64,000 bases of DNA from Shigella phage Sf21: the sequence record MF327007; one strand, 5' to 3'. This document shows positions 22,998 through 28,757 of the stretch, one piece after another; the stretch's first letter is position 1, and each line of letters begins with the position of its first letter. The position numbers were made by a program, and so were the translations under genes. Below the pieces are notes generated by a model. That model was not told where the DNA came from. It was given only the letters and a program-made list of their open reading frames with translations, and searched no databases.

Positions 22998-23025
22998 GAT
23001 GTTCTCCTCTTTATCCGATAGTTGT

Positions 23026-23055
23026 ATAGTATCACAGCTCAAACGGAAAGTAAAC
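23026..23055 (-). promoter_or_regulatory. Early promoter (GTTTAC -35, 18-bp spacer, TACTAT -10)
   Basis: Same architecture; drives 22809-22997. Confidence 0.6.
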
Positions 23056-23064
23056 CGGTAAAAT

Positions 23065-23087
23065 GAAAAAGTCTCCCGAAGGAGACT
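23065..23087 (-). terminator. UUCG-tetraloop terminator (minus strand)
   Basis: Minus strand AGUCUCC-UUCG-GGAGACU followed by UUUUU. Confidence 0.65.
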
Positions 23088-23091
23088 AATG

Positions 23092-23478
23092 TTATTCGAG
23101 GGAAAGAAGATATTTACTCTGGTAAAACATCCCAGTAATATCATCTATCGTGCTTTGAATGGCTGGAGGCATTTCTTTATAAATGCTGTTAGATTGGTCT
23201 AGTATGCGATCAATCATTTTAATTGTGTCGGTAGGAAGTTTACTGGCATCTGGAATAGAAGGCGTGTATTTTCTACCAGAATACCCCAAATATTGCTCAC
23301 CAAATTTATCAATCAAATCTGGCAACTCAGAGAAAATAAAATCGTATGCTTTGTGTCTAGCATAACTTTTAGTTTCAAAATGCGCAGAATGAAAATAAGC
23401 TTGTGCAGCCATTAATAAACCTAAGTATTCATCTGCCTTTGAAGGTTTTCCACTTTGTGAAAAGTCGCTGAATTTCAT
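23092..23478 (-). CDS. Hypothetical protein (128 aa)
   Basis: ORF followed by a UUCG hairpin terminator. Confidence 0.55.
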
Positions 23479-23768
23479 TCAGTCTCCAATTTAATGTTCA
23501 TAATTCTAGCGTATGATTGCGCCATCTCCGCGCCTCGCTCTATACATTCAAAATCGGAAGAGCACGGGTCATTTTTATAAGTCGTTCGCATAAAACTATA
23601 GAACTGTTCAGATGATTCTACGCTTTTATTTTCAAAAAGCATATAAACGTGTCTAATACCAGATTCCATAAATTTATCAAAATGAGGATCGACATTCGCT
23701 TCAATTGGTGGAGATAAAGCAAACGCTAATCCTAGCATGGCAAATAGTGCCGTTGCTTTTAAGGCCAT
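23475..23768 (-). CDS. rI: Lysis inhibition regulator RI (secreted antiholin)
   Basis: 97 aa; signal peptide MALKATALFAMLGLAFALSPPIEA; recognised as T4 RI; upstream of tk. Confidence 0.88.
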   Translation of the reverse strand: MALKATALFAMLGLAFALSPPIEANVDPHFDKFMESGIRHVYMLFENKSVESSEQFYSFMRTTYKNDPCSSDFECIERGAEMAQSYARIMNIKLETE

Positions 23769-23780
23769 AAAGGCCTCCTA

Positions 23781-23993
23781 TCATTTTTGTCCTGTATTTA
23801 CTTTATGCCGATGCACGGCCTTAACTTTATCAAGGTATTTTTCAAAATTTCGCAATCTAGTATAGTCTGCCGGAGATTGGTTGAGTGATACTTCTCGACG
23901 CAAAGCTGAAATGATATTTCCAACTTCCCTACGAATTTCATCTAATTGAAGAACAGTAAGATTGCGAAGTTGCTTTTCAGTTAATTGTAGCAT
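23781..23993 (-). CDS. Hypothetical protein (70 aa)
   Basis: ORF on gene strand. Confidence 0.5.
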
Positions 23994-24035
23994 ATATACC
24001 CCTTTAGTTAGATAAACCTATTTATAACTTTTGCA

Positions 24036-24617
24036 CTAACCGAGCTTTTTAGTTAATTCATTCCAATGTTTTCTACACAAAGAAACATAAATTTCATCAC
24101 CAATACAGATTTGATTACCTTCTTTAACTGGTGTTCCATCTTCCATTAATCGAGCTGTCATAATAGCTTTTTTACCACAATGACAAACTGCCTTTAGTTC
24201 AATAAGTTTATCTGCAATCGCCAAAAGTTCTTTAGAACCTTCAAATAATTTTCCAGCGAAATCAGTCCTTAGCCCATAAGCCATAACAGGAACATTATAT
24301 GTATCAACAATTCGACTTAATTGATGCACCTGTTCAGTTTTTAAAAACTGAGCTTCATCTACAAATACACAATGAATATCTTTTTGTGCTTCAGCCCATT
24401 TATAGAACTCAAAAATATCCATATCATCCGTAATAATATTCGCTTCCTGCTTAATTCCAATGCGAGAAACGACTTCACAGACAGAATCGCGAGTATCAAT
24501 AGCAGGCTTAAGAACTAATACACCCATTCCGCGTTCTTTATAATTATGTGCAGCAGTCAAAAGAGAAGCAGATTTTCCAGCATTCATTGCTGCGTAAGTA
24601 AAAATTAAACTCGCCAT
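24036..24617 (-). CDS. tk: Thymidine kinase
   Basis: 193 aa; P-loop AAMNAGKS and C-terminal zinc cysteines CHCGKKA...CRKHW. Confidence 0.93.
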   Translation of the reverse strand: MASLIFTYAAMNAGKSASLLTAAHNYKERGMGVLVLKPAIDTRDSVCEVVSRIGIKQEANIITDDMDIFEFYKWAEAQKDIHCVFVDEAQFLKTEQVHQLSRIVDTYNVPVMAYGLRTDFAGKLFEGSKELLAIADKLIELKAVCHCGKKAIMTARLMEDGTPVKEGNQICIGDEIYVSLCRKHWNELTKKLG

Positions 24618-24626
24618 ATCACCTTC

Positions 24627-24812
24627 TTAAAGCATATTCACATAAGCTATTAATTCGTTTTCTTTCTTATCAAACCGATCAGCAAATTCTTCTTGCTGAT
24701 CGGGAGATAGCGGGCCGTATTCATCATAAAAGGTGTTTGCTTCTGTATGCTCATCTAGAAGTTCATGGATAAGCTCAAACAATTTATCTTTTTGTTCTTT
24801 ACTCAGACTCAT
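24627..24812 (-). CDS. Hypothetical acidic protein (61 aa)
   Basis: ORF on gene strand. Confidence 0.5.
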   Translation of the reverse strand: MSLSKEQKDKLFELIHELLDEHTEANTFYDEYGPLSPDQQEEFADRFDKKENELIAYVNML

Positions 24813-24978
24813 ATATTAATTTCCAGGAGTTTTAAAATAATTCGCTTTTGCTTAAATATTTCCATAGTTAAATGACCAGTATCTTTTTGACCGATTCCAA
24901 TGGCAAAACCTTTATTGACAGCGAGTTCAATTAAATTATCAAGCTCACGTAACACTTCATATTGTAACTCAAAACTAT

Positions 24979-25206
24979 TCATTTCGGTTTACCTTCTTTA
25001 ACGAAATCAGGATAAGGATAAAATCCTGAATAAAATCCTTCACCTTTATGATTGATGCATCCTTTATTAGAACAATAGCACCAATAATCGAAATCACAAG
25101 CCATTTCATCATTACATAAAGCAAAAACAACTGGCCATTCACACTTTTCGCAGTGGGCATTTTTAAGAATACTAGTTTGGCTCATAACCATGTAACCTTT
25201 AAACAA
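24979..25206 (-). CDS. Cysteine-rich small protein (75 aa), possible zinc binding
   Basis: CEKCEW...CNDEMACDFDYWCYCSNKGC. Confidence 0.5.
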   Translation of the reverse strand: MFKGYMVMSQTSILKNAHCEKCEWPVVFALCNDEMACDFDYWCYCSNKGCINHKGEGFYSGFYPYPDFVKEGKPK

Positions 25207-25394
25207 TATTCTTCTACATGTTGTTTACGACCTTTCCTATCAATAAAGGTATATTCAACGAATGTTCCAATATAGTCTTTATCTACATCATGTGGACTAT
25301 TAATTGGGCATTTAGTACGGCAAATGCGTTCCCATTGACGAATAATTTCCACTTTGTTTTTAGGATCAAACGGATGCGGGTAATGTACTTTCAT
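25182..25394 (-). CDS. Hypothetical protein (70 aa)
   Basis: ORF on gene strand. Confidence 0.5.
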   Translation of the reverse strand: MKVHYPHPFDPKNKVEIIRQWERICRTKCPINSPHDVDKDYIGTFVEYTFIDRKGRKQHVEEYCLKVTWL

Positions 25395-25845
25395 AATCCA
25401 CCACTATTAAATCAATATCAGGAGTAAACATGTCGATTAATTTAGAAACCTTATCCCAATCGCCGCCAGCAATACCGCAACCTATGCGTGGAATGTAAAT
25501 TACTGGTTTAAACAAAAGGGTTTCTGCCTGTAGATTTAATTCTATCATGCAGTTTACTAAAGCACCATAATCAAGATTAGGACCCGGTTCGTATTGTGTA
25601 TACAGGTTATAGCATATACCAAATCCCGTAGGACTATGTTTAAAAACAATAGACATATCGCCTAATTTATCACGAGAACCGTACTCGGTAGTGGTTTTAT
25701 CTATTTCTAAAATTTTGGGATAGGCTCTTGCTAATTGACCCGCTACGCCAGAGCCCATTGTGTGGAAGCAATTGCACCCGTGCGCAATAATATTACCTTG
25801 AAGAAATAGGGCGACAATATCGCCCTTGATATATTTTACAATCAT
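25366..25845 (-). CDS. Macro-domain-like protein (possible ADP-ribose binding/processing)
   Basis: Gly-rich blocks QGNIIAHGCNC, MGSGVAGQLARAYP, IPRIGCGIAGGDW resemble macro-domain motifs. Confidence 0.55.
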   Translation of the reverse strand: MIVKYIKGDIVALFLQGNIIAHGCNCFHTMGSGVAGQLARAYPKILEIDKTTTEYGSRDKLGDMSIVFKHSPTGFGICYNLYTQYEPGPNLDYGALVNCMIELNLQAETLLFKPVIYIPRIGCGIAGGDWDKVSKLIDMFTPDIDLIVVDYESTLPASV

Positions 25846-26183
25846 CTAGTACTCAATCCTCGATTATAAGAATCTACTAAACGGTCAACCATTGAATGAC
25901 AAGCGGCTTTATCTTTCTCCTCCGCAACTGAACATTCTAAAGTATTCCACTTTTTAGCATATCGTTTTAACAATGTATCATTTTTATATCTGCTTGATTT
26001 ATCTCTTTCTCCGTCTTTATATGCATATATTAATTTCTGCGCAAATTCAGCTTGGCATGCTTTATTTTTCCCACAATAATCCGCGGCAGTACGGTTTACA
26101 TACTCTCTAATTTCAGTATATGATGTATCTGCTAACACAGAAAATGAAATTAATCCTATACATAAAACCAAAATTTTAGTCAT
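25842..26183 (-). CDS. Secreted small protein (113 aa)
   Basis: N-terminal signal peptide MTKILVLCIGLISFSVLA. Confidence 0.55.
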   Translation of the reverse strand: MTKILVLCIGLISFSVLADTSYTEIREYVNRTAADYCGKNKACQAEFAQKLIYAYKDGERDKSSRYKNDTLLKRYAKKWNTLECSVAEEKDKAACHSMVDRLVDSYNRGLSTR

Positions 26184-26721
26184 TTACTATTTCCAAAAGT
26201 TTATTATTTTTAAGGTAATTAGCCTTTTCTAGGACTTCAGAAGCATATTTAGAACCTGCTTTAACATTCCATCCCGAATTATAAGAGGATATCGCCTTTC
26301 TTATATCGCCCTTATGTATATTTAACCAATAAGAAAGTTCAATGTACGCCCAGGAAGCTGAATTGGACCGTTTATTCAACATTCTTTTTATTTCAGCATC
26401 GGTCATATTATAACCAAGTTCCTTAACTCTTGCTCGCATAGTAGGCAAATAATTTTGGAACATTCCATAGGCATGATGCTTTGGTTTAGATTTTAAATTA
26501 ACTCCGGCAGAGCTTTCTTGCCATAAAATAGCAGCCATTATATGACCTAATCCGCTCTTGTGGATATTTTTGTGTGTTTTATATTTTCCATCCTTAGAAA
26601 ATTGTTCCCCGAATTGATACGCGTAACGCATGTTATCGAGTTGGACATTACTGAAAGTATGCTCGGAGCTATGTGCCATCATTGAAATGGCCAATAGACC
26701 AGCGAGTAGTGCTTTTCTCAT
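26176..26721 (-). CDS. Secreted protein, possibly lytic-transglycosylase-like (181 aa)
   Basis: Signal peptide MRKALLAGLLAISMMAHS; ILWQESSAG block resembles a transglycosylase catalytic-Glu motif. Confidence 0.5.
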   Translation of the reverse strand: MRKALLAGLLAISMMAHSSEHTFSNVQLDNMRYAYQFGEQFSKDGKYKTHKNIHKSGLGHIMAAILWQESSAGVNLKSKPKHHAYGMFQNYLPTMRARVKELGYNMTDAEIKRMLNKRSNSASWAYIELSYWLNIHKGDIRKAISSYNSGWNVKAGSKYASEVLEKANYLKNNKLLEIVND

Positions 26722-26728
26722 GCTTACC

Positions 26729-27190
26729 TCATTGAGTTTTAATTACTGCTTTAGAAGCCTTTCCTGGTAAACGACGACTATTGATAATTGCCATCCTGCA
26801 CTGAAGCGACGGGTCTTTGAACTTCGCATTAGGTTTACAAACTGTAAATCCAAGCCAAAGATTTCCATCTGTGATTTCTAAACGTCCAGGACGGTATTCA
26901 ACCCCATCAATAAAATCCTCATCAATGTCAGGACGCGGAGGCATACTCAGGAATTCATTAACTTCTAAAACATGGTCTTTTATTTTGTGGAATAATTCAA
27001 AAACATATGTCTCATCAATCTCCCGTTGAATTGCACGATCAAGAAGATGCTGAGAATATTTTAGATGAAACGATGAGACCCCTGCTGCTTTTGATGCCTC
27101 ACGAATCTCATTGTTAATTTGACGAAACTCCGACTCAAAGTGACGACGAAGCTTATTTCGACGGATAAAAACTTCTGTGTTGATAGTCAT
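26729..27190 (-). CDS. regB: Site-specific endoribonuclease RegB
   Basis: 153 aa, MTINTEVFIRRNKLRRHFESEFRQ...; recognised as T4 RegB. Confidence 0.8.
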   Translation of the reverse strand: MTINTEVFIRRNKLRRHFESEFRQINNEIREASKAAGVSSFHLKYSQHLLDRAIQREIDETYVFELFHKIKDHVLEVNEFLSMPPRPDIDEDFIDGVEYRPGRLEITDGNLWLGFTVCKPNAKFKDPSLQCRMAIINSRRLPGKASKAVIKTQ

Positions 27191-27249
27191 GTTATTCTCC
27201 TCTTAACTGATAGAAAAATTATACCACAGTCAAGAGGAAAAGTAAACAG

Positions 27250-27570
27250 TTATTCTTTAAATCTAATCAATTTATTCATAGACTTTGAAACTTCTGCACG
27301 AACCTCGTGCAGATTTTTAAGCTGTTCAAGACGTTGCTCATAGTAAGCAATTTCATCTTCTTCGAGGCAGTCATGTGAATCTTCTTTAAGATAACGTGCA
27401 TAGTCCTGGAAAGCTTTACGGACTACTTCCTGGAAATCATCAAGACTTTGAATTTTCTTAGAAGCAATAGATACACGACGAGGGGCAGTATAATACTCAT
27501 AACCAAACCCTGCGCTTAATTGAGCCATTAATATTTTTCCTCTGGTTGGAACACAGCACGACAAGCCCAC
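27250..27570 (-). CDS. Hypothetical protein (106 aa)
   Basis: ORF preceded by an early-type promoter. Confidence 0.5.
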
Positions 27571-27794
27571 ATACTAGCTTCTTTGAGTTTCGTTTTAGCA
27601 ATAGTTAACTGATCTAGGCTTTCAGCATAATTCTTTGCGAATTCGTAGTCTTCACAATTATCAAATGCTTCCCAGAATTCATCATATAAAGCGTCAAAGA
27701 TAAGTCCTAAACGAACTTCAGCATCTTTGATAGCATTCACTTTACTGATTTTATCGTCAGTATGTGGTTTATAACCTTTAATGTCTTCAATCAT
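27528..27794 (-). CDS. Hypothetical protein (88 aa)
   Basis: ORF on gene strand. Confidence 0.5.
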
Positions 27795-28008
27795 ATTTTA
27801 CTTCCTCACCTGTTCCCAAATCATATTCAACTAAACGAATAGGTTCATGAATGCCATATCCTTGAACAGAAATTTCTGTCGTAGGATAAATTCCATTAAT
27901 ATCACCCATGTTCCATGCTTCGTTAAATTGCTGTTCGCCTGAATTACTAAACCACTCGGCGAAAGCATTTAGCACATCTTCAGAACCTTCAATAATTATC
28001 TTTGCCAT
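27787..28008 (-). CDS. Hypothetical protein (73 aa)
   Basis: ORF on gene strand. Confidence 0.5.
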   Translation of the reverse strand: MAKIIIEGSEDVLNAFAEWFSNSGEQQFNEAWNMGDINGIYPTTEISVQGYGIHEPIRLVEYDLGTGEEVKYD

Positions 28009-28370
28009 TACAAACTCTCGGTGAAGGTACGAGCGATAACGTCGCGCTGCTGTTCCGGAGTCAGAGAGTTAAAGCGAACTGCATAACCGGATACACGGAT
28101 GGTCAGCTGCGGATATTTTTCCGGATGCTTAACTGCATCTTCCAGAGTTTCACGACGCAGAACGTTAACGTTCAGGTGTTGACCACCTTCAATTTTAACT
28201 GTAGGCTGTTGCTCAATTTCAATTTCACGGGCATGCAAACCATAGAAAATTTCTGGGTCTACAAAAGAGTCCTCTTTAAAGGTTTTAGAGACAATAATTC
28301 GTGCTTGAATACCATCTTCAAAATAAATAGTACCTTTATGTGTGCCTTCAAGAATTTGATATGCTTTCAT
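28008..28370 (-). CDS. Autonomous glycyl-radical cofactor (GrcA/YfiD-like)
   Basis: C-terminus ...[60 protein letters not shown] is a glycyl-radical domain (RVSGY); 3' half of the gene is GC-rich relative to the phage. Confidence 0.85.
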
Positions 28371-28376
28371 ATAACC

Positions 28377-28757
28377 TCAATTAGAAAATAAATTTATCCA
28401 AGATTGTTCTTTAATTAAAAATGGCTCAGAATCATATGCCATTAAACTCTGTGTGATTAGTCCTTTAAAAGGCCCATCAATAAATTCCATGGTAAAATAT
28501 GGAATTTTATTCATTAGCCGTGCATTAGGAGCCGTGCACAAAGCTCTGCATCCTTTGAATACGCCTTTTTGTAATTTGTATTGCTTGGGATAAAATTCGC
28601 TCAAAATGTTATTTTTTGCCAAAATTTCAAAATGATTCACCAATTTATTTTTAATAGTTTTTGGCGAAAAATAAAGATATTCGAAAAGCTGAGTGTCTGT
28701 CATCATTGCATTCCGATTACGAAAAACTGTGGACGAGTAATACCACCAATGCAACAT
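28377..28757 (-). CDS. Hypothetical protein (126 aa)
   Basis: ORF on gene strand. Confidence 0.5.
   Translation of the reverse strand: MLHWWYYSSTVFRNRNAMMTDTQLFEYLYFSPKTIKNKLVNHFEILAKNNILSEFYPKQYKLQKGVFKGCRALCTAPNARLMNKIPYFTMEFIDGPFKGLITQSLMAYDSEPFLIKEQSWINLFSN

What the first reader, a model, noticed from the sequence alone, without database searches (positions are those of the whole stretch)
25366..25845. Macro-domain-like protein in the tk-regB accessory region
The 159-aa product has glycine-rich blocks (QGNIIAHGCNC, MGSGVAGQLARAYP, IPRIGCGIAGGDW) arranged like the ADP-ribose-binding loops of macro domains. T-even phages encode ADP-ribosyltransferases, and hosts use ADP-ribosylation in some defences, so a macro domain here could reverse or sense ADP-ribosylation.
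Basis: inference. Interest (0 to 1): 0.4.

Follow-up and report, generated by a model that had tools for sequence, protein, structure and literature searches.

The report
T-even phage Tk.4 (AdfM) macrodomain gene

Summary
The 159-aa ORF at 25366-25845 (minus strand) is real and is a genuine macro domain. It passes Pfam Macro above the gathering score. The AlphaFold2 model has pLDDT 94, and Foldseek matches TARG1, Poa1p, BT1257 and DarG macrodomains.

The window is a Tequatrovirus, 100% identical over 3.3 kb to Escherichia phage BW-1. The gene is the positional orthologue of T4 tk.4, lying between tk.3 and vs.

A 2025 bioRxiv preprint renamed it adfM: it was the only T4 gene that became necessary on a DarTG2-expressing host, and a clean knockout sensitised T4 to DarTG2.

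- Tk.4 lacks the catalytic lysine of DarG, TARG1 and PhiKZ AdfM. It has Gln84 there (254 of 255 homologues), as in Streptomyces SCO6735, a proven thymidine-ADP-ribose DNA hydrolase.
- This window carries a divergent allele. It is 58% identical to T4 Tk.4 but 93% identical to Dhakavirus JS98 Tk.4, inside flanks that are 91-100% T4-like. That pattern indicates a cassette swapped between genera.

Verdict: observation confirmed, interpretation supported, already known, low interest.

The parts
25366..25845 (-). tk.4 / adfM coding sequence: a 159-aa single-domain macrodomain protein
   Evidence: ORF. Pfam Macro. AlphaFold2 pLDDT 94.2. Foldseek PDB matches. 58% identity, E=1e-70, to T4 Tk.4. Same position between tk.3 and vs as in T4.
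25741..25782 (-). Catalytic loop, residues H22-A35 (HGCNCFHTMGSGVA); holds H22 and N25
   Evidence: H22, G23, N25, C26, G33 and A35 are invariant in 105 homologues. H22 aligns with SCO6735 H24 and N25 with N27. N27S nearly abolishes SCO6735 activity (PMC9411070).
25582..25608 (-). Motif N80-L-Y-T-Q84-Y-E-P-G88; Gln84 (codon 25594-25596) sits where TARG1 K84, DarG K80 and the PhiKZ AdfM lysine sit
   Evidence: Alignment A2. Q84 is found in 254 of 255 homologues. SCO6735 Q85A and Q85E are inactive.
25456..25491 (-). Diphosphate-binding loop P119-W130 (PRIGCGIAGGDW)
   Evidence: Aligned to PRIGCGLAGGTW of SCO6735 and PRIGCGLAGGKW of BT1257. P119 and W130 are invariant; G122 and G124 are nearly so.
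25842..25845 (-). ATGA overlap: the vs stop codon (TGA) overlaps the tk.4 start codon (ATG), suggesting translational coupling within one transcript
   Evidence: Read directly from the sequence. The junction is identical in T4.
25372..25833 (.). Divergent allelic cassette: DNA identity to T4 falls to about 47-80% here, against >=95% in the flanks
   Evidence: Sliding identity. Per-gene identities against T4 and against JS98.
25808..25826 (-). Perfect hairpin AGGGCGAtatTGTCGCCCT inside codons 7-13; identical in T4. Divergence from T4 starts immediately 3' of it on the coding strand. Role unknown.
   Evidence: Terminator-like scan. Sequence comparison with T4.

Best explanation
The gene is the tk.4 (adfM) orthologue of a T4-like phage. 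It encodes an orphan, single-domain macrodomain ADP-ribosylglycohydrolase made from the regB-vs.1-vs-tk.4 gene string. When a host carries the DarTG2 toxin-antitoxin defence, infection releases DarT2, which ADP-ribosylates thymidines in single-stranded phage DNA and blocks replication. Tk.4 most likely binds the ADP-ribose through its two glycine-rich loops, hydrolyses the thymidine-ribose bond and restores unmodified DNA. It may additionally hinder DarT2 by direct contact. Its active site is of the SCO6735/BT1257 type. Gln84, held by Asn25, positions the distal ribose for attack by water. The lysine that DarG, TARG1 and PhiKZ AdfM carry at this position is absent.

Shown here: the ORF, the macro fold, orthology to T4 tk.4, and the Gln-type active-site residues. 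Shown by others: T4 tk.4 is needed against DarTG2, and SCO6735 hydrolyses dT-ADPr DNA using Q85 and N27. Inferred: that Tk.4 itself is a dT-ADPr DNA hydrolase, and that this 58%-identical allele has the same target.
For: - Macro domain: Pfam above the gathering score, AlphaFold2 pLDDT 94.2, and Foldseek hits to TARG1, Poa1p, BT1257, Taq and Mtb DarG macrodomains and Thermosipho DarTG.
- Orthology: 58% identity over the full length to T4 Tk.4, E=1e-70, in the same slot between tk.3 and vs with the same ATGA junction.
- Genetics in T4: tk.4 was the single significant hit on a DarTG2 host, and a clean knockout sensitised T4 to DarTG2 (bioRxiv 10.1101/2025.11.20.689424).
- Active site: Gln84, His22, Asn25, G122 and G124 align with SCO6735 Q85, H24, N27, G126 and G128. 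They are invariant or nearly so in 105-255 homologues.
- SCO6735 precedent: Q85A is inactive and N27S nearly inactive on dT-ADPr DNA, and SCO6735 protects against DarT (PMC9411070).
- Phage precedent: a phage macrodomain from PhiKZ removes DarT2-made ADP-ribose from DNA in vitro (PMC13309987).
- Exchange pattern: the allele has been swapped between phage genera, as expected for an accessory counter-defence gene.
Against: - No biochemical assay of any Tk.4 protein was found; the preprint itself only says enzymatic removal 'seems likely'.
- The genetic evidence is for the T4 allele, which is only 58% identical to this one.
- The two lysines that position DNA in SCO6735 (K34, K89) are not conserved. 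They align with S32 and with the G88/P89 region.
- Overall identity to SCO6735 and BT1257 is only 26-27%.
- The N-terminal half also resembles yeast Poa1p, an ADP-ribose-1''-phosphate phosphatase.
Confidence: 0.72

Rival explanations
1. Tk.4 protects mainly by binding and blocking DarT2 (stoichiometric inhibition), not by hydrolysing modified DNA.
For: Catalytically dead SCO6735 (Q85A), DarG (K80A) and TARG1 (K84A) all reduce DarT activity in vitro, with SCO6735 the strongest (PMC9411070). No enzymatic assay exists for Tk.4.
Against: Tk.4 lacks the C-terminal DarT-binding domain of DarG; it is 159 aa and a single domain. The near-total invariance of Q84, N25 and H22 and of the diphosphate loop across 255 homologues is what an enzyme active site shows. 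The two modes are not mutually exclusive.
Confidence: 0.1
2. Tk.4 is a small-molecule enzyme, as its old 'phosphatase' label implies: an ADP-ribose-1''-phosphate phosphatase or O-acetyl-ADP-ribose deacetylase that clears NAD-derived metabolites, with DarTG2 protection a side effect.
For: GenBank and PHROG annotation reads 'phosphatase', 'A1pp phosphatase motif' or 'Poa1p-like'. The N-terminal half aligns with yeast Poa1p at E=1.6e-9 and includes the H-x-C-N-C motif. Foldseek hits Poa1p at TM 0.68-0.75.
Against: In the T4 screen tk.4 was dispensable on plain E. coli K-12 and became important specifically with DarTG2. Poa1p F152, studied as the F152A mutant in entry 6lfu, aligns with Ala126 in Tk.4. 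T4 has no known pathway that produces Appr-1''-p (own knowledge).
Confidence: 0.08
3. Tk.4 reverses ADP-ribosylation made by the phage's own transferases (Alt, ModA, ModB) and so tunes modification of host RNA polymerase and other proteins.
For: T-even phages encode three ADP-ribosyltransferases (established knowledge; Alt and ModA are mentioned). The macrodomain is co-expressed in the same infection.
Against: Alt and Mod modify arginine, and macrodomains of this class are known to act on acidic-residue esters and on thymidine, not on arginine N-glycosides (established knowledge of the family). The T4 screen gave a DarTG2-specific phenotype and no phenotype on the plain host. The family also occurs in about 2790 phage records, including FelixO1-like and Pseudomonas phages; whether these encode Alt/Mod homologues was not checked.
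Confidence: 0.04
4. This divergent allele targets a different ADP-ribosylated substrate than the T4 allele does, such as RNA or another nucleobase modified by a different defence transferase.
For: Identity to T4 Tk.4 is only 58%, inside otherwise 91-100% identical flanks. The cassette was exchanged with Dhakavirus. TARG1-class macrodomains also act on nucleic-acid-linked ADP-ribose (PMC9411070; paper titles).
Against: All putative active-site residues (H22, N25, Q84, G122, G124, W130) are identical between the two alleles. Most differences lie outside the loops.
Confidence: 0.06

Closest known systems
T4 Tk.4 = AdfM (anti-DarT factor Macrodomain), bioRxiv 10.1101/2025.11.20.689424
   Same: Positional orthologue between tk.3 and vs, with the same ATGA junction to vs. 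Single macro domain of 155-159 aa. Identical H22, N25, Q84 and loop glycines. Identity is 58% over the full length.
   Different: It is a distinct allele class: 58% identical to T4 but 93% to Dhakavirus JS98. It is four residues longer and overlaps tk.3 by 29 nt rather than 4. Its diphosphate loop is the family-consensus GCGIAGGDW, whereas T4 has GAGIGKGNW.
Streptomyces coelicolor SCO6735 (PDB 5E3B) and Bacteroides BT1257 (2AFC/2FG1), orphan Gln-type macrodomains
   Same: Gln at the position of the DarG/TARG1 catalytic lysine. Conserved His and Asn in the catalytic loop. Nearly identical PRIGCGxAGGxW loop. Stand-alone gene without an adjacent darT. SCO6735 hydrolyses dT-ADPr DNA and neutralises DarT.
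   Different: Only 26-27% identity. SCO6735 K34 and K89, which position DNA, are not conserved. The motif around Gln is N-L-Y-T-Q-Y rather than N-M-I-G-Q-H. Tk.4 is encoded by a phage, not a bacterium.
DarG antitoxin macrodomain (Mtb 5M3I, T. aquaticus 5M31/5M3E) and PhiKZ gp104 AdfM (PMC13309987)
   Same: Macro fold, TM about 0.73. Presumed same substrate, DarT2-modified thymidine in ssDNA, and the same biological outcome of neutralising DarT2. The catalytic-loop Asn is conserved.
   Different: DarG and PhiKZ AdfM have the F-P-T-K motif with a catalytic lysine; Tk.4 has Gln. PhiKZ AdfM matches Mtb DarG at E=9e-25, whereas Tk.4 matches it at 5e-5. Tk.4 has no C-terminal DarT-binding domain. 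The NCBIfam DarG model scores 27.7 bits against a cut-off of 250. BLASTP of Tk.4 against PhiKZ AdfM aligns only 23 residues.
Human TARG1/OARD1 (4J5R/4J5S)
   Same: Best Foldseek match, E=4.7e-10 and TMt 0.81. Shares the PRIGCG loop and the His equivalent to H22. TARG1 can also remove thymidine-linked ADP-ribose from DNA (cited in PMC9411070).
   Different: The TARG1 catalytic dyad K84/D125 aligns with Q84/A126 in Tk.4.
Yeast Poa1p ADP-ribose-1''-phosphate phosphatase (6LFQ-6LFU)
   Same: The N-terminal 80 residues align well, including I-x-Y-V/I-K-G and H-x-C-N-C. This is the source of the 'phosphatase' and 'Poa1p-like' labels in GenBank.
   Different: Poa1p is 180 aa with insertions. F152 corresponds to Ala126 in Tk.4. 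The genetic phenotype of T4 tk.4 is defence-specific.

Membership tests
Macro domain (Pfam PF01661) | Profile match above the curated gathering score | tested here: met
   32 bits against a cut-off of 22, E=1.3e-7, profile positions 2-117 of 118. T4 Tk.4 scores 27.7 bits.
Macro domain (Pfam PF01661) | Three-layer alpha/beta/alpha macro fold | tested here: met
   AlphaFold2 pLDDT 94.2 and pTM 0.89. Foldseek probability 1.00 to more than 50 solved macrodomains, TM 0.65-0.75.
Macro domain (Pfam PF01661) | Binds ADP-ribose | not testable with these tools
   Both binding loops are present and conserved. Binding itself needs ITC or a co-crystal.
T4 Tk.4 / AdfM (T-even type) | Homology to T4 Tk.4 and the same genomic slot (tk.3 - tk.4 - vs) | tested here: met
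   58% identity, E=1e-70, no gaps over 155 aa. Flanking tk.3, vs, vs.1 and regB are 91-99% identical to T4.
T4 Tk.4 / AdfM (T-even type) | Needed for phage growth on DarTG2-expressing hosts | not testable with these tools
   Shown only for the T4 allele (bioRxiv 10.1101/2025.11.20.689424).
DarG antitoxin (DarTG2) | Catalytic lysine (Taq/Mtb K80) in the F-P-T-K motif | tested here: not met
   Gln84 aligns with that lysine. Gln is present in 254 of 255 family members.
DarG antitoxin (DarTG2) | C-terminal DarT-binding domain and an adjacent darT gene | tested here: not met
   The protein is a single 159-aa domain. Its neighbours are vs and tk.3. The NCBIfam DarG equivalog scores 27.7 bits against a cut-off of 250.
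SCO6735/BT1257-type (Gln-type) macrodomain hydrolases | Gln at the TARG1 K84 / DarG K80 position, held by the catalytic-loop Asn; His24 equivalent present | tested here: met
   Q84, N25 and H22 align with Q85, N27 and H24 and are essentially invariant.
SCO6735/BT1257-type (Gln-type) macrodomain hydrolases | DNA-positioning lysines K34 and K89 | tested here: not met
   They align with S32 and with the G88/P89 region in Tk.4. Other basic residues, such as the nearly invariant K60, may substitute; this was not tested.
SCO6735/BT1257-type (Gln-type) macrodomain hydrolases | Hydrolysis of thymidine-linked ADP-ribose on ssDNA | not testable with these tools
   Needs a gel-shift de-ADP-ribosylation assay as in PMC9411070 and PMC13309987.
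TARG1/OARD1 | Lys84/Asp125 catalytic dyad | tested here: not met
   Q84 and A126 occupy the aligned positions.
Poa1p-like Appr-1''-p phosphatase | Residues probed in the Poa1p mutant structures: H23, S30, F152 | tested here: inconclusive
   H23 aligns with H22 (same residue), S30 with T29 (conservative change) and F152 with A126 (not conserved). The middle of Poa1p was not aligned.

The most novel reading that the evidence does not exclude
The T-even tk.4 locus holds at least two old allele classes that are about 57% identical and are swapped between phage genera. This window's allele is 93% identical to Dhakavirus JS98 but sits in a T4-like backbone. The classes could differ in which DarT2 variants, or which other nucleic-acid ADP-ribosyltransferases, they neutralise. 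All of them would use a lysine-free, Gln-based mechanism, which would mean phages recruited an SCO6735-like orphan hydrolase rather than a DarG antitoxin.
Probability: 0.15. Interest if true: 0.45.

Novelty: already known. Interest (0 to 1): 0.18.

Why it matters
The finding adds little that is new. It confirms that this phage carries the known anti-DarTG2 macrodomain gene. Two points could be useful to people working on DarTG counter-defence. First, T-even AdfM has the SCO6735-type glutamine active site, not the DarG lysine, so Q84 and N25 (rather than a lysine) are the residues to mutate for a catalytic-dead control. Second, the gene exists as sharply divergent, horizontally exchanged alleles, so conclusions from the T4 allele should be checked on the other class. 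By the counts here the other class is at least as common: 311 phage records at >=90% identity against 224 for the T4 type.

Tried and rejected
- DarG membership was rejected. The NCBIfam DarG equivalog (27.7 bits against 250) and the PADLOC DarG model (E=5e-7) give only macro-domain-level similarity, and the catalytic lysine and C-terminal domain are absent.
- Kinship with PhiKZ-type AdfM was rejected. BLASTP aligns only 23 residues, and PhiKZ AdfM belongs to the DarG clade.
- I looked for an embedded or antisense RNA element. Rfam gives no hit at E<=0.1 in 23000-28500.
- Promoter and terminator scans were uninformative: 11 promoter-like sites against 14.7 expected by chance. The one good site, TTTACT-17-TATAAT with a TG at 27246..27218 on the minus strand upstream of regB, is only a candidate.
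- The genomic context of a bacterial homologue (Pelagimonas, P0094, 40% identity) has no darT or defence genes nearby. It is an orphan gene, which says nothing about origin.
- The opposite-strand ORF at 25218..25427 (+) and the internal ORF at 25557..25649 (-) were treated as by-products of the real genes.
- I could not retrieve the middle part of the Poa1p sequence, so its residue equivalent to Q84 was not determined.

Full report
**Observation**

The ORF is real: ATG to stop, 159 aa, window 25366..25845 on the minus strand.

These are regB (26729..27190), vs.1 (26176..26721), vs (25842..26183), the ORF itself, tk.3 (25182..25394), three small ORFs and tk (24036..24617). Its ATG overlaps the TGA of vs (ATGA at 25842-25845), and its 3' end overlaps the tk.3 start by 29 nt.

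**Is it a macro domain?**

Yes.
- Pfam PF01661 matches at E=1.3e-7 and 32 bits, above the gathering score of 22, over almost the whole profile.
- PHROG 335 matches at 1.2e-71.
- Sequence search of the PDB finds BT1257 (2AFC/2FG1), yeast Poa1p, Streptomyces SCO6735 (5E3B), Mtb DarG and human TARG1. A profile of 105 homologues raises these to E=1e-18 to 1e-11.
- An AlphaFold2 model built on that alignment has mean pLDDT 94.2 and pTM 0.89.
- Foldseek places the model with TARG1, Poa1p, BT1257 and the DarG macrodomains at probability 1.00 and TM 0.72-0.75. In the viral library it matches other phage macro proteins, including Acinetobacter phage 133 'tk.4'.

**What gene is it?**

The 3.3 kb around it is 100% identical to Escherichia phage BW-1 and 99% or more to many Tequatrovirus genomes. 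In the T4 reference record the same slot holds tk.4, annotated 'phosphatase; contains A1pp phosphatase motif'. Other records call the gene 'macro domain protein' or 'Poa1p-like'. The macro-domain nature of this gene was therefore already in public annotation.

The family is large. tblastn finds it in 2788 of 50,697 phage records. It matches 6116 50%-identity clusters at E<=1e-3 and 1570 at E<=1e-10 in a 1.84-billion-protein library.

**Function known from the literature**

- A bioRxiv preprint (10.1101/2025.11.20.689424, November 2025) ran a transposon-insertion screen of T4 on E. coli expressing DarTG2. It found tk.4 as the single significant hit, and a clean knockout sensitised T4 to DarTG2. 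The authors renamed the gene adfM and state that enzymatic removal of ADP-ribose from DNA 'seems likely'. No enzymology is reported.
- An independent Cell Reports paper (PMC13309987) used the same name for PhiKZ gp104. It showed in vitro that gp104 removes DarT2-made ADP-ribose from a DNA oligonucleotide.
- A search for 'tk.4' together with 'macrodomain' found no other paper.

**Refinement 1: the active site is not DarG-like**

I recovered reference sequences from PDB search print-outs and from the PhiKZ construct, then aligned them.
- Where TARG1 has K84, DarG has K80 and PhiKZ AdfM has the lysine of its F-P-T-K motif, both this protein and T4 Tk.4 have Gln84, in the motif N-L-Y-T-Q. SCO6735 (Q85) and BT1257 also have Gln there.
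- TARG1 D125 aligns with Ala126.
- Gln84 occurs in 254 of 255 homologues, His22 in 247 and Asn25 in 253. The loop P119-x-I-G-x-G-I-A-G-G-x-W is nearly invariant.
- The SCO6735 paper (PMC9411070) shows that this orphan macrodomain hydrolyses thymidine-linked ADP-ribose on DNA and protects against DarT. Q85A and Q85E are dead and N27S is nearly dead. The authors propose a water-mediated mechanism in which Gln85, locked by Asn27, positions the distal ribose.

Tk.4 shares these residues but not the DNA-positioning lysines K34 and K89. PhiKZ AdfM, in contrast, is a true DarG-clade protein: it matches Mtb DarG at E=9e-25, against 5e-5 for Tk.4. BLASTP aligns it with Tk.4 over only 23 residues. The two proteins called AdfM therefore belong to different macro subfamilies. 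Tk.4 works like DarG but fails DarG membership on three counts: no catalytic lysine, no C-terminal DarT-binding domain and no adjacent darT. The NCBIfam DarG model scores 27.7 bits against a cut-off of 250.

**Refinement 2: this is a divergent, exchanged allele**

- The protein is only 58% identical to T4 Tk.4, although tk, tk.3, vs, vs.1 and regB are 91-99% identical to T4, and rI.-1 and rI.1 are 100%.
- DNA identity to T4 is 95% or more on both sides and drops to roughly 47-80% between about 25372 and 25833.
- The same allele is 93% identical in protein and 87% in DNA to tk.4 of Dhakavirus JS98, whose flanking genes are only 46-73% identical to the window's. The cassette has therefore moved between genera.
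- Both classes are common. 311 phage records carry the window type at >=90% identity. 224 carry the T4 type at >=90%, and a further 159 at 80-90%.
- All putative active-site residues are the same in both alleles, so the same activity is the default expectation. This remains an inference.

**Mechanism and rivals**

The best-supported account (confidence about 0.7) is as follows. Tk.4 is expressed as part of the regB-vs-tk.4 string. It binds ADP-ribose attached by host DarT2 to thymidines of single-stranded phage DNA and hydrolyses it through a Gln84/Asn25-assisted, lysine-independent mechanism, which rescues phage replication.

The rivals are:
- Mainly stoichiometric inhibition of DarT2. This is possible as an added effect, since dead SCO6735 inhibits DarT.
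- A small-molecule Appr-1''-p phosphatase or OAADPr deacetylase role, which is the old annotation. It is disfavoured by the DarTG2-specific phenotype.
- Reversal of the phage's own Alt/ModA/ModB arginine modifications. The chemistry is wrong for this macro class and no phenotype supports it.
- A different substrate for this allele.

**Other checks**

- No Rfam family matches in 23000-28500.
- Promoter-like sites are no more frequent than chance.
- A bacterial homologue (Pelagimonas, 40% identity) is an orphan gene with no darT nearby.

**Verdict**

The gene was already annotated as a macro domain, and the function of its T4 orthologue has already been reported. Residual value lies in the Gln-type active site, the allele dimorphism and the missing enzymology. 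Interest is low, about 0.18.

Noticed in passing
window 24600-25190: The interval between tk and tk.3 is essentially non-homologous to T4. It holds three small minus-strand ORFs. One is a 75-aa Cys-rich ORF at 24979..25206 that matches Pfam PF23895 'Phage zinc binding domain' at E=4e-29 and has no counterpart in the T4 tk-tk.3 interval. This is a second hypervariable cassette next to tk.4.
   Followed up: partly
window 25808-25826 (minus strand, codons 7-13 of tk.4): A perfect 8-bp-stem hairpin, AGGGCGAtatTGTCGCCCT, followed by a T-rich tail, scored as terminator-like. It is nucleotide-identical in T4, and the window-versus-T4 divergence begins right after it. It could be a recombination boundary, an RNA structure or chance.
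   Followed up: partly
window 25366-25845 versus L005 (JS98) 2001-2480: The tk.4 allele is 93% identical in protein to Dhakavirus JS98, while flanking genes are 46-73% identical to JS98 and 91-99% to T4. This is clear phylogenetic incongruence, meaning an inter-genus cassette exchange.
   Followed up: yes
window 26176-26721 (minus strand), vs.1: The 181-aa Vs.1 protein has an N-terminal signal-like segment and matches Pfam SLT (lytic transglycosylase) just above threshold, at 23.4 bits against 21.3. It is 'hypothetical protein' in the T4 record.
   Followed up: no
L001 (Shigella phage CM8) and other hits: Several public annotations in this region look like propagated errors. Examples are notes reading 'Endoribonuclease RegB' on vs.1, vs.7 and vs.8, 'molybdopterin-guanine dinucleotide biosynthesis protein MobD' for mobD.4, and 'ABC transporter ATP-binding protein' in BW-1. 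The 'phosphatase' label on tk.4 is likewise outdated.
   Followed up: no
window 25366-25394: tk.4 overlaps the start of tk.3 by 29 nt in this phage and in JS98, but only by 4 nt (ATGA) in T4. The longer C-terminal tail (residues 156-159) has pLDDT below 50.
   Followed up: partly
window 27218-27246 (minus strand): A sigma-70-like promoter, TTTACT-17 nt-TATAAT with an upstream TG (10 of 12 matches), lies just upstream of regB. It is a plausible early promoter for the regB-vs.1-vs-tk.4 string. It was not verified.
   Followed up: no
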